The notes: a model not told the origin generated them from the letters alone. 54,545 nucleotides of DNA, filler included, from Sluysia triapertura (GCA_046118255.1; 4 parts of 4 records of this genome joined end to end with filler, not necessarily neighbours in it); one strand, 5' to 3'; counted from the first letter of the whole stretch, positions 12,922 through 41,026 are shown. Made by a program: numbers and translations.

Positions 12922-12974
12922 AAATCCTACAGACTAGCCTTTACACATAAGACTAGGGTCGTAGGTGAACTCAC
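12922..12974 (+). other. Conserved 53-nt structured motif, copy A
   Basis: AAATCCTACAGACTAGCCTTTACACATAAGACTAGGGTCGTAGGTGAACTCAC; stems CCTAC/GTAGG and CTAG/CTAG; ACCTCC at 12901. Confidence 0.75.
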
Positions 12975-12989
12975 ATATTATAAACTATT

Positions 12990-13355
12990 TTACTTTGTTT
13001 TGCAATGTATTTTTTAATCTGTCTCTTTTAGTACGATTAAATCGTTCAATCAATAATGATGAACTGCATGTTTTTCTGATACTTATTCACTCTTTACCTA
13101 AATCAATTCGAAAATTTATATGTTTGTCGTTTTTAATTAATATCGATACCGCTTTACTCACATCTCTACCACTATTTGAAAACACAGCAGCACAATTTAA
13201 AATATTTTTGTAGCCTTTATTAATTTTTGAATATGGAATCATATCCATTAAATCAGCTTGCCATAATTCATTTGTTCCTTTGCTTTATATTTACGTGATG
13301 GAAATCTTGGCCTCATTGGTTTTCTAAGTGGTGTGCTAACTGATTTTTTAATCAT
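12990..13355 (-). mobile_element. Maverick/Polinton-type retroviral-like integrase pseudogene
   Basis: From ATG at 13355 (minus): LRKPMRPRFPSRK / KGTNELWQADLMDMIPYSKINKGYKNILNC / NFRIDLGKE / IERFNRT. These match Polinton integrase motifs LHKP.R..FP.R, WQADL, TD.GKEF and ERFNRT. Frameshifts, deletions and 3' truncation are present. Confidence 0.85.
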
Positions 13356-13999
13356 TTTGTCGTCTCTTTTTATGCTTGCTTCTCTACTACTGCGTAATCA
13401 ACTAGATACTTTTATCGATTTCGTTTTCGTCATCCAAGAGTCCTTACCCATCTGCTACCATACTGTTTAGAGTAAAACTACAGCAGTTTAGCACCCATTC
13501 ATAGCGATTGTGTTTCAATAATGTAAAGATTCATTTTTATTAATTTTCATAAATAAATAATTATGAATTCATCAAAATGATGACTATAAGAATCGCTTTG
13601 GAACTACGTGATAAGTTTTTCTAACCAAATTGATCTAAATAATGCTATTTGATCTCAACATAAATCGCTTCAATTAAACTAAAGTTTGCTTTTCTTTTCT
13701 GAAATCGATTTAATGTGATTAATTATTGGTTTTTCAGTTAAAACTTATAATTCTTCATAATAAAATTTTCTTGCTGCAGTCCATACACATTACACTTTGC
13801 AGTTAATTTGTACTCTTGACACCATTTATTTAAATGTTTTGTTTTAAATGTTTTGTGAATTTAGATGGAGCTAATTGAAGTAGAAATAGTTTATTCATGC
13901 ATAAAACTTGAGTTATTATGTTAGTATCAGTTATAAGTAAATTATAGACTATCTTATTACAATTAAAAATTTTAAATAAATCAAATTTAATTGAATTGT

Positions 14000-15480
14000 A
14001 CATTATATTTTTCTGATAAATAAAGTCGAGGAACAAAACATAAATTTTTTATCCTAAAATTTAATAGGACACAAAGATTAAATGTTAATTTATCATTTCT
14101 GATATTCGGCGAAATGTTCGCATTCTGCACATTTCTCTAATTGTGGATTCCTAAAATAAAAGAGATCAACATTAAATAATGTTCGAAAACAAAAGAATAA
14201 AATTACTTTATACTCAAAGTCATCTGCGGTTAATAAGTTGGGATATTTCAACGACATCATTATCATTCTTATTACAAGTCGATTTGTTGCTTTCATTAAG
14301 ATCTTGTGTTGCCATTATTGGATTGTTTACGCGTCGTACATGATCATAACTATCCTTTGATTTAGTATCGATATAATGAATTTCATAGATATTATGGCAA
14401 TCGTCGCAAAATGGTCCAAATTTACTGCATTGACCTAATTCATTCGATTGGAATGGGCATAGTGTGGTTCTAAATAGTTTATAATTTTGTTATTGTGAAA
14501 TAACGTCGATTGAAAGAACAAAATTGTTTGCGACATTAAGTTCTGTTGAATAATCTGCTGTGATTTTACTATGACATGCGTTGGCATTATATGTATCAAG
14601 ATTTGATAGAAGTTTACTAACATTCGTACTTTTATCTTTTATAGAGTCATCCATACACATGAACTTCGTTGAGGCATCGAGGAATATGGGGTAATTAAGG
14701 TGTAACAGAAAATTTAACTACTAAGTCGAAATCAATTTTTAAAGTATTCATTTCTTTTAACATTATGTATAATATAACCACACCATTACGATATTTCATG
14801 AGCAATTTTAAATTGCTATTCATTTCTTGTGTAACATCATTTAATCTCCAAACGTTTGAAGAAGAAAACACTTTGTTCTTGATTAAAATTTTATATACAA
14901 ATGTGAGAAAAATATGATGCCATAATGATTTAAGAAATTTCGGACGTATGTTAAATGATAGTTCATGAATTCGTATAATATACTGATTGAAATTGATTAG
15001 GTCACTTAGAGACAGAATTTATGATGATTGTCGACCACGATGTACTTTCGGCATCGAAGACAAATCTAAAAACTAAGTAATGAATTGTTTGTATTTTGTT
15101 TAGTTTCAGATAGAAACTTGCAACCATCTGGAGCAGAAATGGTCTGGAGGATACATTAATTAGAGAAGAAGACTGATAAGATAACATTTTATATCTTGGA
15201 TATGAATCAGTGAAATGAAAATTTAAGGGTTTTATTGGATTATGTTCATAAACTAAAAGATCATATGAAATGCTTGATACATTTTTGTCATTTAAATCGC
15301 ATGAGTAGTTAGAGTCACTATTAGCTTTGACTAAATTATTAGGTTCATTTACATGATTATCTAAATGAATTAACATTTATTGACTAACTTGTTCAATTGC
15401 CTTTACTTTAAATTCATTACATTTCAATGCATCGTTATCACTGTTGTGATGTGTTATTTGTTTAGACAACATTTTTTAGA
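14000..15480 (-). pseudogene. Disrupted gene with a CCCH-type zinc finger and a C-terminal CxxC
   Basis: Chain of broken minus-strand frames, including ORF 15002-15376. 14394-14483 reads YKLFRTTLCPFQSNELGQCSKFGPFCDDCH (C-x9-C-x6-C-x3-H). An apparent short intron precedes LEKCAECEH. Confidence 0.5.
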
Positions 15481-15716
15481 TTAGGAAATCGTCTTTTAAT
15501 TATTAACAGCTTTATTTTAGAATAATAAGCACAATTTGACTTAAATTTTTCAATGATAAAAAAGATGAGATATATTACAAAACTAATTAAATATTTGTCT
15601 AGTATATTGACTTTACAAATTGTGTAGAATACATTGATTTTTTACTACTGCCTGAAAAAATGAGAATGAGTTTCAATTGTTTATTTTGTGTATGTCTTTT
15701 ATTAGTTACTATGTTG

Positions 15717-15886
15717 TGATTGGACGTCCACTAAGAGATGATAATAATTACAAAAACAATGACATTGATTGGACGTCCAATCAGACCAAAATTACTGAAC
15801 AACAAACTCATCATTTTGGTATCTATCATCGGTAGACAGTTAAAACGACATGTTGAGTTAACTTTAATTAAACTGTCTACTGATGA
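15717..15886 (-). promoter_or_regulatory. CCAAT palindrome plus spaced inverted repeat upstream of the CCCH pseudogene
   Basis: Perfect 18-bp palindrome TGATTGGACGTCCAATCA at 15766-15783, with a partial copy at 15717. Inverted repeat TCATCGGTAGACAGTT (15826-15841) / AACTGTCTACTGATGA (15871-15886). Regulatory function is inferred. Confidence 0.45.
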
Positions 15887-38900: not shown

Positions 38901-38915
38901 TTCTTTATTCTTATC

Positions 38916-38968
38916 GTGAATTTTCTATGATACTGGACTTACTCACTGAAGGGCCAGCACATAGATTT
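38916..38968 (-). other. Conserved 53-nt structured motif, copy D
   Basis: Minus strand AAATCTATGTGCTGGCCCTTCAGTGAGTAAGTCCAGTATCATAGAAAATTCAC; stems CTATG/CATAG and TGCTGG/CCAGTA; ACCTCCAG upstream (38994-39001, minus). Confidence 0.8.
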
Positions 38969-40521
38969 GCAGCTTAAGAAAAGAGCGATAAGACTGGAGG
39001 TATATATTTATATTTATTCTTGGTTCTATGTATTTCCTAGTTCCTAATTGACTTTTCTTAATTTATTATAATTTAAAGAACAGATGGAGTATACTCATTA
39101 TGTAAAAAATTCCAAATGTTAATTTAGTCATTATTTTATTCAAAAATTATTCTAATCAAAATGTTTAAATGATTATCAAAACACAAATTTTAAAATGATT
39201 ATTATTTATTAAAATTATTATTATTTATTATTATTTATTTAATAAATAATTATTTATTATTATTTATTATTAATTATTAATTATGTGATAAATTATTTAT
39301 TAAGGAAAATACAAAAAATATTAAATTCACTTATACAATTTAAATAAATTAAGCTTTGGATATAAAATCTTAATTAGTACTCTAGATAAAAAAATGTGAA
39401 ATCAAATTTTATATACAAATAAAAATTTTATTAATCGAATGTACATAAACATTATCAAATATACAAAATTATAATATTAAATTTAGCAATAAAATATCAC
39501 GGAAAAAGGTTAAAGATTCGTTCAAATAATATTTATTAATATTAATTTTATATTTAATATTTAATTATCGCAATTTATAAAACAAAGTTTGTGTCGTATA
39601 TAAATATTACCAAATTGTAATTTAAAATTAAGTCTAATTTATGTAATTAATTAAATTTATCTTAAGATAGTTAAAAACTAACGATTAGTTAATATAAAGT
39701 ATCAAATTGATTTTCCAACGATTAGATTTATGAATAAAATATGTTTTTTCTCCAAATATAAAATGTAACTTCTTAAACAATAACTTTCTTTCAAATATAA
39801 ACTATAGTTATTGTAGGTACTATTTTTCAAAATCCAATTGTATTTATAGTTTTTATGTTGTTATGATTATTCGTAAACAATCACTATTACAAACAATAAT
39901 ATTTAGTTTGAACTATTTTAAATAATAATAATATTCTTTTTTCACATTTAAATAATAATAATATTTGTTTTTAATAATACTTATACAATATTTTGATAAT
40001 AATAATAATTTAGTTTTATATAATAATAATATTAATAATTTTACAATATTGTGATAATAATAATATTTTCAATAGTAATTTCAATTTTAATTTAAATATA
40101 CATTACATTTTAAATAAAAATACATTTATTTTTATCGACACAATAATTTTTAGCATTTAATTTTTCTAATTTTACCTTACAAGATAATCATAAAAATTAT
40201 AATTTTGGTTGTAATGGGTATTTGTTTATACTATTAATAATTTTTAAATTTATAGAAAAAATTTTTCTATTAATTAAAATCTTTTCACGACTTAATTTTA
40301 ACGATAATATACGTTTCGATATTATAAACATTCTTTTACATTTAATGAACATTAATTCCATGAAAATTTCACTTAAAAGATCAACAAAAGTGACATAATT
40401 TATTTATAATATTAAAAATTTTATTATTTAAATTTCTGTCTTGGTCATGATTTCCTTGAGCATATTTCGACAAGATATTTTCAATAGTTCTAAAAAATTT
40501 AAATATATATCTATATATATA

Positions 40522-40621
40522 NNNNNNNNNNNNNNNNNNNNNNNNNNNNNNNNNNNNNNNNNNNNTTAATTAATTAANNNNNNNNNNNNNNNNNNNNNNN
40601 NNNNNNNNNNNNNNNNNNNNN
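40522..40621. other. Assembly spacer
   Basis: 44 N + TTAATTAATTAA + 44 N. Confidence 0.97.
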
Positions 40622-40975
40622 TATAAAATTCTTGAGTTCTCGTAACTAGTTTTATCTAGTTAAGGTAAAATCTATATTATATTTTTATTTTACTAACAAT
40701 TGTACATTTTTTAGTTAATAAATCATTTAATAATTGAATTATTTCTCATTATAAAATCATTAAAATACCTAATAAGTTTTCAAACGCTAGATTTTAATTC
40801 TAGCACGTAATATTTCTTAAATCGATTCTATATAACAGGATCTACGCAAAATCGTTGGAGAATATTTATTTCAGAAATTAACATTTAATAACTAATAATA
40901 TATTTTTGCATCCAGATTTAGGACATCAGATAGGAACAACGTTTTTAATAAGTTAACTCTTTACTTTACATAAAA

Positions 40976-41026
40976 AAATCCAACGGCTGGCCCTCGCTGG
41001 TAAGTCCAGTACGCTGGTGAACTCGC
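40976..41026 (+). other. Conserved structured motif, copy E (51 nt)
   Basis: AAATCCAACGGCTGGCCCTCGCTGGTAAGTCCAGTACGCTGGTGAACTCGC; preceded by hairpin-plus-tail units at ~40643, ~40787 and ~40824. Confidence 0.85.

What the first reader, a model, noticed from the sequence alone, without database searches (positions are those of the whole stretch)
12922..41026. Five dispersed copies of a 51-53-nt hairpin conserved in structure rather than sequence: candidate novel structured RNA or ssDNA recognition site
Seen: copies at 12922(+), 28610(+), 32871(+), 38916(-) and 40976(+), in three different contig segments; four are exactly 53 nt. The layout is AAATC - outer stem - inner stem - G|CC-N(7-10)-TAA(G/C) loop - inner stem' - outer stem' - (T)GAACTCAC-like tail. 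The stems change compensatorily (outer CCAACG/CGTTGG, CCTAC/GTAGG, CTATG/CATAG; inner CTTGG/CCAAG, TTGG/CCAA, CTGG/CCAG, CTAG/CTAG), while the unpaired parts stay nearly fixed. A G.U-type pair recurs on the written strand in C, D and E. The loop GTAAG(T) is near-complementary to the tail ACTCAC, which could form a pseudoknot or be a two-fold protein site; both also resemble splice donors, on opposite strands. Inference: this covariation implies selection on the fold in the ancestral elements. I cannot match it to hammerhead, HDV-like, pistol, hatchet or SECIS. It only partly echoes twister/twister-sister (CUGG..AAGUCCAG, ..CUCA). Candidates are a new self-cleaving ribozyme, an LTR packaging or processing signal, or a HUH/recombinase site of an unrecognised mobile element.
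Basis: partly seen in the sequence, partly recalled or inferred. Interest (0 to 1): 0.9.

Follow-up and report, generated by a model that had tools for sequence, protein, structure and literature searches.

The report
Flatworm transposon-end hairpin repeat
The five hairpins are real copies of a high-copy flatworm repeat that, read on the opposite strand, looks most like the end signal of a rolling-circle DNA transposon (Helentron type), a known kind of element, rather than a new catalytic RNA.

Summary
The five 51-53-nt copies are exactly where stated (0 of 100 shuffles give a match), and 7 of 14 pairs change on both sides. The host is a flatworm. Contigs of one public run laid over copy D show the 53-nt core about 50-fold deeper than its flanks, so it is a high-copy repeat with sharp edges. 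As single-stranded DNA, that strand folds into the hairpin in all five copies. Not shown: a partner left end (one weak candidate) or a RepHel gene. Unexplained: L2 LINE 3' ends start 45-70 nt from copies D and E, and a 6-mer recurs beyond the T-run. No Rfam match. The twister-sister core and the loop-tail pseudoknot fail on the covariation. Verdict: probably a new member of a known transposon kind (about 0.5); a ribozyme-headed L2 derivative stays possible (about 0.1).

The parts
12922..12974 (-). Copy A core; read on -: palindromic box (12965-12974), interrupted hairpin (12926-12965), A + 3 T (12922-12925)
28609..28663 (-). Copy B core; read on -: 12-nt palindromic box (28652-28663), hairpin (28614-28653), A + 4 T; starts 4 nt from the contig end
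32871..32923 (-). Copy C core; box with one change (32914-32923), hairpin (32875-32914), A + 3 T
38916..38968 (+). Copy D core, a different stem subfamily; box (38916-38925) carries private changes: most contigs read the common letters at 38920 and 38923
   Evidence: (92 and 111 contigs)
40972..41026 (-). Copy E core (2 nt shorter loop); box 41017-41026, hairpin 40980-41017, A + 7 T
28666..28669 (+). TAAG just beyond the box in B; also C 32933-32936 (+), D 38910-38913 (-), E 41030-41033 (+). On the other strand this puts TT 3-4 nt before the box in B, D and E
   Evidence: (4 of 5; fair P 0.005)
12901..12906 (+). ACCTCC beyond the T-run in A; also C 32848-32853 (+) and D 38996-39001 (-). Either a further terminus or a target preference; unexplained
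   Evidence: (3 of 4; fair P 0.0002 among GC-rich 6-mers, 0.16 among all 6-mers)
38405..38870 (-). 3' end of an L2-group LINE (ORF2 C-terminus, 3' UTR, (ATT)n tail) beginning 45 nt from copy D
   Evidence: (52.3, 28.6, 18.6 bits)
41041..41440 (+). More decayed L2 3' fragment beginning 15-70 nt from copy E, homologous to D's
   Evidence: E 3e-15; 7.7 bits against null top 4.6
17176..17190 (-). Weak candidate left end for copy A: T-run then a box with 2 mismatches, correct strand and contig, 4.2 kb away
   Evidence: only non-core hit; null mean 0.35, max 2

Best explanation
Shown: a palindromic box, a hairpin directly after it and a terminal T-run; several stem subfamilies around a nearly fixed box; high copy number with sharp edges. 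Inferred: a RepHel (Y2 HUH plus helicase) transposase encoded elsewhere binds the box and displaces one strand. The hairpin that forms in that single strand marks where copying stops and the end is joined at a T|T site. Stems may change freely as long as they pair, while box, feet and inner loop are read by sequence. Interiors differ between subfamilies or have decayed, leaving the conserved end of about 60 nt; in D and E the neighbouring sequence is an L2 3' end, captured or inserted.
For: Geometry: PMC4067079 (passages) gives HINE subTIRs as palindromic 12-15 bp, 38-60 bp from the 3' end, with a 3' stem-loop, T strings at the termini, and subfamilies defined on the last 60 bp. Here the box ends 38-40 nt before the first terminal T, T-runs are 3,4,3,3,7, and core plus TAAG spans about 60 nt. 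Sequence: 5 of the 15 subTIRs in its Table S2 contain GTGAA. Supplements S2/S3 show that this reading is the left-end sense, so its reverse followed by a hairpin and Ts is the right-end sense, as seen here. [quoted passage not shown] PMC5148889 (passages): FoHeli1/2 end in ATTTT with the inverted repeat 38-51 bp upstream, 3' ends more conserved than 5'. Folding: only ssDNA of this strand gives the nested hairpin as best structure in 5 of 5 copies (z -2.3, -3.1, -2.5, -2.9, -0.8); written-strand DNA, written-strand RNA and reverse-strand RNA each give 4 of 5. Copy profile: summed depth 90,654-143,401 over core D against 2,230-2,760 in either flank.
Against: No partner left end above chance: 22 non-core box matches against 15-23 in 10 shuffles, and one weak candidate for A only. 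No RepHel domain in 296 stop-free pieces of the window; the genome could not be searched. The hairpin (14 bp, interrupted) is longer than the 5-11-bp stems in the passages read and abuts the T-run instead of lying 8-35 bp from it. The box is a clean palindrome only in A and B. ACCTCC beyond the T-run in A, C and D should not be shared if the T-run is the end. The two flanks of C (p 0.003) and E (p 0.013) resemble each other like decayed target duplications, which HINEs do not make (2 of 4 self tests, but 2 of 16 cross tests also gave p<0.02). Same-strand L2 3' ends next to 2 of 5 copies are not predicted. The match to published subTIRs was noticed after the fact.
Confidence: 0.5

Rival explanations
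1. The core, on the written strand, is the structured 5' head of non-autonomous retroposons that carry an L2 3' end (bipartite or SINE-like). The fold acts in RNA, either as a binding or processing signal (about 0.15) or as a new self-cleaving ribozyme that sets the 5' end (about 0.1).
For: L2 3' fragments start within 45-70 nt of D and E on the same strand. With 4 L2 fragments of 7 bits or more in the window, two such neighbours among five have a chance of about 1e-4 (my estimate). The D and E tails are homologous. B-C and C-D downstream flanks are weakly alike (p 0.005, 0.011). Flank self-similarity in C and E could be decayed target duplications. [quoted passage not shown]
Against: A, B and C have no detectable L2 tail with two profiles or at DNA level. 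The D and E junctions differ by about 74 nt. Depth falls about 20-60-fold between core and L2 (a 20-fold dip also occurs inside L2, so this is weak). No tRNA, 5S, snRNA or ribozyme match. No outer stem closes the conserved feet into an internal loop (p 0.08-1.0). Copy E does not fold into the hairpin as written-strand RNA. No pseudoknot covariation.
Confidence: 0.25
2. An IS200/IS605-like (Y1 HUH) end or another single-stranded-DNA recombination site: a four-base guide at the hairpin foot and a four-base cleavage site about 9 nt after it.
For: The written strand has a tetranucleotide at the 5' foot, a bulged hairpin and a fixed TCAC/TCGC 9 nt later, like the guide, imperfect palindrome and cleavage site of IS608 (PMC5934647 passages). 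TTAA lies about 20 nt upstream in A and E (seen in the sequence).
Against: By the pairing pattern I infer from the two IS608 guide/site pairs, AAAT would select TTAA, not TCAC. TTAA occurs in 23% of random 16-nt windows. No Y1 transposase in the window. No convincing match in viral, metagenome, prokaryote, phage or plasmid collections.
Confidence: 0.08
3. Retrocopies of an unknown multi-copy small RNA, sometimes joined to truncated L2 cDNA by template switching (as in U6-L1 chimeras).
For: Sharp edges and different L2 junctions in D and E. Such chimeras are described in PMC4494074 (passages).
Against: No Rfam family. Three stem subfamilies among five copies is much diversity for one small RNA. 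No shared T-terminator or Sm site after the written-strand tail (seen in the sequences).
Confidence: 0.07
4. A remnant of LINE coding sequence or a 33-40-nt mini-intron (GT in the loop, AG in the downstream TAAG) whose hairpin is incidental.
For: One frame of B and C scores p 0.04-0.06 against the L2 profile. GT...AG of 33-40 nt can be drawn in B-E (seen in the sequences).
Against: In that frame B and C differ by 8 non-synonymous and 0 synonymous changes. A has no GT donor. Neither idea explains 7 pairs with two-sided changes.
Confidence: 0.05

Closest known systems
Helentron / HINE / DINE-1 (HLE2) right end
   Same: Palindromic GTGAA-centred box in the right-end sense, 38-40 nt from a terminal T-run; hairpin right after it with compensatory stem changes; conserved module of about 60 nt; high copy number.
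   Different: Hairpin longer (14 bp, two bulges, fixed inner loop) and abutting the T-run; box only 10-12 nt; no partner left end or RepHel found; TT also lies 3-4 nt before the box in B, D and E, as at a left end; a 6-mer is shared beyond the T-run.
Fusarium FoHeli1/2 (Helitron2)
   Same: End in ATTTT, with an inverted repeat 38-51 bp upstream and a hairpin; 3' end better conserved than 5' (PMC5148889 passages).
   Different: Those are 5-6-kb autonomous elements with both ends identified; here only a 53-nt module is seen.
Bipartite non-autonomous LINEs and ribozyme-headed retroposons (R2 SIDE, RTE, Ingi; Sm-alpha)
   Same: Structured short head next to a LINE 3' end in D and E.
   Different: Reported only for RTE, Ingi, Vingi and R2, not L2 (PMC5786205 passages). 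No known ribozyme motif here; 3 of 5 copies have no LINE tail.
Twister-sister and twister-sister-like (lantern) ribozymes
   Same: The GUAAG and ACUCAC strings resemble the two strands of loop L1, and D and E resemble a TS stem-loop.
   Different: L1 must lie between two stems (PMC11620745, section 10 and passages). Here one strand is in a hairpin loop and the closing stems are not conserved; the position equal to G7 is A; the position equal to A12 is C, a change reported as almost inactive.
IS200/IS605 ends (IS608) and PATEs
   Same: Tetranucleotide, bulged hairpin, tetranucleotide 9 nt later.
   Different: Guide and site do not fit the IS608 pairing pattern; prokaryotic; no TnpA here.

Membership tests
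Helentron/HINE (HLE2) | 3' subTIR of 11-18 nt, palindromic in some families | tested here: inconclusive
   Box of 10-12 nt; full palindrome in A and B, damaged in C, D, E; D's common form restored in most contigs; GTGAA centre shared with 5 of 15 listed subTIRs.
Helentron/HINE (HLE2) | 3' subTIR 38-60 bp from the 3' terminus | tested here: met
   38-40 nt from box end to first terminal T in 5 of 5 (range). About 63-76 nt if the true end is after the shared 6-mer.
Helentron/HINE (HLE2) | Stem-loop just after the 3' subTIR, kept by compensatory change | tested here: met
   longer than the 5-11-bp stems.
Helentron/HINE (HLE2) | T string at the terminus, insertion at T|T, no target duplication | tested here: inconclusive
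   T-runs 3,4,3,3,7; no empty sites available; flank self-similarity in C and E.
Helentron/HINE (HLE2) | Matching 5' subTIR 2-4 nt from a T-rich 5' end | tested here: inconclusive
   Non-core matches at chance level; one candidate at 17176-17190 for A.
Helentron/HINE (HLE2) | Autonomous partner encoding RepHel with the same ends | not testable with these tools
   No genome held; no RepHel among 296 window pieces.
Canonical Helitron (HLE1) | 3' hairpin followed by CTRR, A|T insertion | tested here: not met
   No conserved CTRR after the hairpin on either strand; definition.
Twister-sister / lantern ribozyme | 5+6-nt catalytic internal loop between two conserved stems, with G7 and A12 | tested here: not met
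   for the definition; no outer closing stem; loop-tail pairing broken in C; no Rfam hit.
Hammerhead, HDV-like, twister, pistol, hatchet, hairpin ribozymes | Match to the family covariance model | tested here: not met
   0 hits at gathering score in the whole window; none on B-E at E up to 10 (A not covered by that call).
Any self-cleaving ribozyme | Site-specific self-cleavage | not testable with these tools
   Needs an in vitro assay.
L2-dependent SINE | Head derived from tRNA, 5S, 7SL or snRNA | tested here: not met
   ARAGORN 0 genes; Rfam none.
L2-dependent SINE | L2 3' tail downstream on the same strand | tested here: inconclusive
   Present in 2 of 5 (D, E), at different junctions; absent in A, B, C.
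IS200/IS605 end | Guide tetranucleotide pairs with the cleavage tetranucleotide | tested here: not met
   Pattern inferred from the two IS608 pairs: AAAT fits TTAA, not TCAC; TTAA nearby is at chance level.
Replitron | Short direct terminal repeats plus right-end hairpin; Y1 Rep gene | tested here: inconclusive
   Short TAAG-type repeats occur around the core; no Rep gene; the passages read name plants, algae and protists.

The most novel reading that the evidence does not exclude
The core is a new class of self-cleaving (or otherwise catalytic) RNA that heads L2-derived non-autonomous retroelements in flatworms, a LINE clade for which the passages read list no 5' ribozyme or bipartite derivative. 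A second, milder novel reading (about 0.12): a complete rolling-circle element of only about 57 nt, in which one palindromic box serves as both left and right subTIR, since TT lies 3-4 nt before the box in B, D and E and a T-run follows the hairpin.
Probability: 0.1. Interest if true: 0.85.

Novelty: new member of a known kind. Interest (0 to 1): 0.35.

Why it matters
If the best reading holds, this is an ordinary but large HINE-type family in a flatworm. It is useful for repeat annotation and as a natural covariation series showing which letters an HLE2 transposase reads (box, inner loop, feet) and which only need to pair. If the 57-nt single-box unit is itself mobile, it would define a minimal substrate for HLE2 transposition and make the mechanism directly testable. 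If the core self-cleaves, it would be a new ribozyme class and would link one to L2 elements.

Tried and rejected
Whole-genome search: none held. Pattern scans: viral 0 and 6 stretches, metagenomes 5, prokaryote genomes 2. All 13 lack the nested stems and score at most 23.3 bits with the model, after being picked by the pattern; taken as chance. Model search of 2 prokaryote genomes: 0 of 2. blastn of C against plasmids: none; of B against phages: 2 records at E 2. Sequencing runs: one holder, no RNA holder listed; no evidence on expression. Motifs I first read by eye as reverse-transcriptase remnants downstream of B and C and upstream of D and E were not supported by profile tests. Coding origin: no synonymous bias. 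Outer closing stem: not significant. Tandem second core upstream of C: p 0.05, 9 of 100 shuffles match. Pseudoknot: rejected in favour of the inner 3-bp stem. tRNA-, SL RNA-, vault RNA-, attC-, IRE- and sarcin-ricin-like resemblances were considered from memory only and fail on A or D. MetaSINE: three short motifs not found in the 2 supplementary files searched, 1 file not searchable. The integrase-like stretch next to A gave no Pfam or PDB match (one search was the wrong frame). Literature searches listed no paper describing this motif; none of the 8 listed papers held the tail motif. Repbase and Dfam were not available, so an existing entry there is not excluded. Earlier findings of this scan: nothing in 4 look-ups.
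Full report
Observation. The five copies (A 12922+, B 28610+, C 32871+, D 38916-, E 40976+) are in the sequence as described. The window is 24% GC and consists of four contigs joined by linkers; A is in the second, B-D in the third, E in the fourth. A pattern for the layout finds these 5 and none in 100 shuffles. A covariance model from them finds no further copy. On the alignment, 7 of 14 pairs have a two-sided change and 88.6% of cells pair, above all 500 shuffles and all slid controls; five related rows make this strong description, not a probability.

Host and copy number. An exon at 47734-47910 matches piccolo proteins; 13 of 15 hits carry names, all trematodes, cestodes or a monogenean, at 75-81% identity, so the host is a flatworm. 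No genome is held. One public run holds the DNA and may be the window's own source. Its contigs laid over 38460-39150 at 80% likeness give summed depth 90,654 and 143,401 in the two bins over core D, 6,490 in the bin on the box side, 2,230 at 38904 and 2,762 at 38985, falling to about 200-270 at the far end. Many single contigs there have depth 10-25. The tool warns that this is no copy number; I infer only thousands of D-like cores, most in flanks other than D's. At 38920 and 38923, 92 and 111 contigs read the letters of the common tail, so D's odd tail is private decay.

Not a known RNA. Rfam gives 0 hits at gathering score for the window and nothing on B-E at E up to 10. ARAGORN finds 0 genes. 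The twister-sister echo fails. That core is a 5+6-nt loop between two stems (PMC11620745, passages and section 10). Here one strand lies in a hairpin loop, no outer stem is supported (p 0.08-1.0), the alternative hairpin that would be needed forms in B, C and E but not in A or D (seen in the sequences), and the letters at G7 and A12 differ. The proposed loop-tail pseudoknot uses the same bases as the 3-bp stem; copy C's change keeps the stem and breaks the pseudoknot. Its central mismatch is a wobble only on the opposite strand.

Strand. The nested hairpin is the best structure in 4 of 5 copies as written-strand RNA (E fails) and 4 of 5 as reverse-strand RNA (C fails). As DNA it is 4 of 5 on the written strand (E fails) and 5 of 5 on the reverse strand. 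This is modest support for single-stranded DNA of the reverse strand.

The reverse-strand anatomy. It reads: palindromic box (10 nt in A, 12 in B, damaged in C-E), hairpin, A, then 3, 4, 3, 3 and 7 T; the box ends 38-40 nt before the first T. [quoted passage not shown] Five of the 15 subTIRs in its Table S2 contain GTGAA (supplement read whole). Supplements S2 and S3 (read whole) show that reading at left ends after a T-run, so its reverse, followed by hairpin and Ts, is a right end, which is the orientation seen here. PMC2374699 (passages) reports a hairpin a few nucleotides after the DINE-1 3' subTIR with stems that differ by compensatory change. PMC7492417 (passages) reports a 60-bp right module of subTIR plus palindrome. 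PMC5148889 (passages) reports ends in ATTTT with the repeat 38-51 bp upstream. PMC11417382 (passages) gives the HLE1/HLE2 definitions and notes that left ends are more diverse than right ends. The alignments in those papers' figures are not held, so I could not compare whole termini. No flatworm term was found in the distribution table of PMC4067079.

What does not fit. Box-like matches outside the cores are at chance level (29 hits, 7 of them in cores, against 15-23 in 10 shuffles). One left-end-like site at 17176-17190 is on the right strand for A, but 0.35 are expected per window. No RepHel, Y1 or LTR-type domain appears in 296 stop-free pieces of 42 residues or more (low-complexity pieces left out). 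The hairpin is longer than published ones and abuts the Ts. ACCTCC lies 15-27 nt beyond the T-run in A, C and D (fair P 0.0002 among GC-rich 6-mers, 0.16 among all). It could mark a further terminus 24-36 nt from the hairpin, or a preferred target. The flanks of C and E resemble each other across the core (p 0.003, 0.013; A 0.07, D 0.67).

The L2 link. The sequence after D is the 3' end of an L2-group LINE: 87 hits, the six long ones scanned all with reverse transcriptase and four with endonuclease; 52 bits on my profile; depth 0.6-1.8 million in most bins. E is followed by a homologous, more decayed piece. The junctions differ by about 74 nt. A, B, C and all upstream flanks show no significant L2 signal with two profiles. 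Two same-strand neighbours among five is unlikely by chance (about 1e-4, my estimate from 4 fragments). This keeps alive a retroposon with a structured head. [quoted passage not shown] Under the HLE2 reading the L2 pieces are captured or inserted interiors; capture by Helentrons is described. This step is inference.

Other rivals. The written strand resembles an IS608 end (PMC5934647 and PMC7290912, passages), but the guide and site do not pair by the pattern I infer, and nearby TTAA is common. Replitrons (PMC10288648, passages) have direct terminal repeats and were described there for plants, algae and protists. Small-RNA chimeras (PMC4494074, passages) and SINE central domains (PMC4824008, passages and 2 supplements) were considered without a match. 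A coding origin shows no synonymous bias. No relative was found in viral, metagenome, prokaryote, phage or plasmid collections; none of these holds animal genomes by design, so this says little.

Mechanism and verdict. Most likely (0.5): the right-end module of a non-autonomous HLE2 family. Shown are the anatomy, covariation, strand preference as DNA and high copy number with sharp edges. Inferred are transposase binding at the box, termination at the hairpin and joining at T|T. Paired stem changes may come from selection in active lineages or from template-switch repair of the quasi-palindrome (own knowledge). It works like a HINE end; membership is not established, because the left end and the RepHel partner are missing. 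Ten literature searches (listings only unless a paper is named above) showed no description of this motif, but Repbase and Dfam could not be checked. Novelty: new member of a known kind; interest 0.35. The boldest reading not excluded is a new ribozyme heading L2 derivatives (0.1, interest 0.85); a self-contained 57-nt rolling-circle unit is about 0.12.

Noticed in passing
window 12065-13290 (-): Decayed reading frames next to copy A with motifs I recall from Polinton/Maverick-type integrase and packaging ATPase; broken by stops; no Pfam or PDB match, so the label is recalled only.
   Followed up: partly
window 18561-18926 (+): Open 122-aa stretch with two RNase H1 N-terminal (Cauli_VI) domains, E 7e-29, in a region of decayed repeats; probably from a mobile element.
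   Followed up: no
window 23414-23841 (+): Two exons of a Groucho/TLE gene (PF03920).
   Followed up: no
window 44180-44317 and 47734-47910 (+): Exons of a piccolo-like C2 domain, used to place the host among flatworms; copy E lies about 3 kb upstream on the same contig.
   Followed up: partly
window 11187-11330 (-) and 38161-38316 (-): Two further L2 ORF2 fragments without a core next to them.
   Followed up: partly
window 52293-52448: 156-nt segment bounded by 29-nt inverted repeats (90% alike), MITE-like.
   Followed up: no
window 28411-28470 and 42451-42510: Long near-perfect hairpins (about -24 and -23 kcal/mol), the two most stable 60-nt folds of the window; unrelated to the core.
   Followed up: no
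window 13312-13371 / 16562-16622 and 20724-20804 / 20950-21031: Two pairs of diverged direct repeats (77% and 79%) in the second contig.
   Followed up: no
window 6246-6533 (+): Weak Tc1/Tc3-type transposase remnant (PF01498, E 0.011).
   Followed up: no
window 28776-28789 (-), 37868-37890 (+), 38996-39008 (-): A TATACCTCC motif occurs three times: once upstream of D, once antisense downstream of B and once alone with a flank like C's upstream; unexplained.
   Followed up: partly
P0026: An L2-type LINE ORF2 protein is named as a hypothetical protein of a bacterial MAG, probably a eukaryotic contig in that bin.
   Followed up: no
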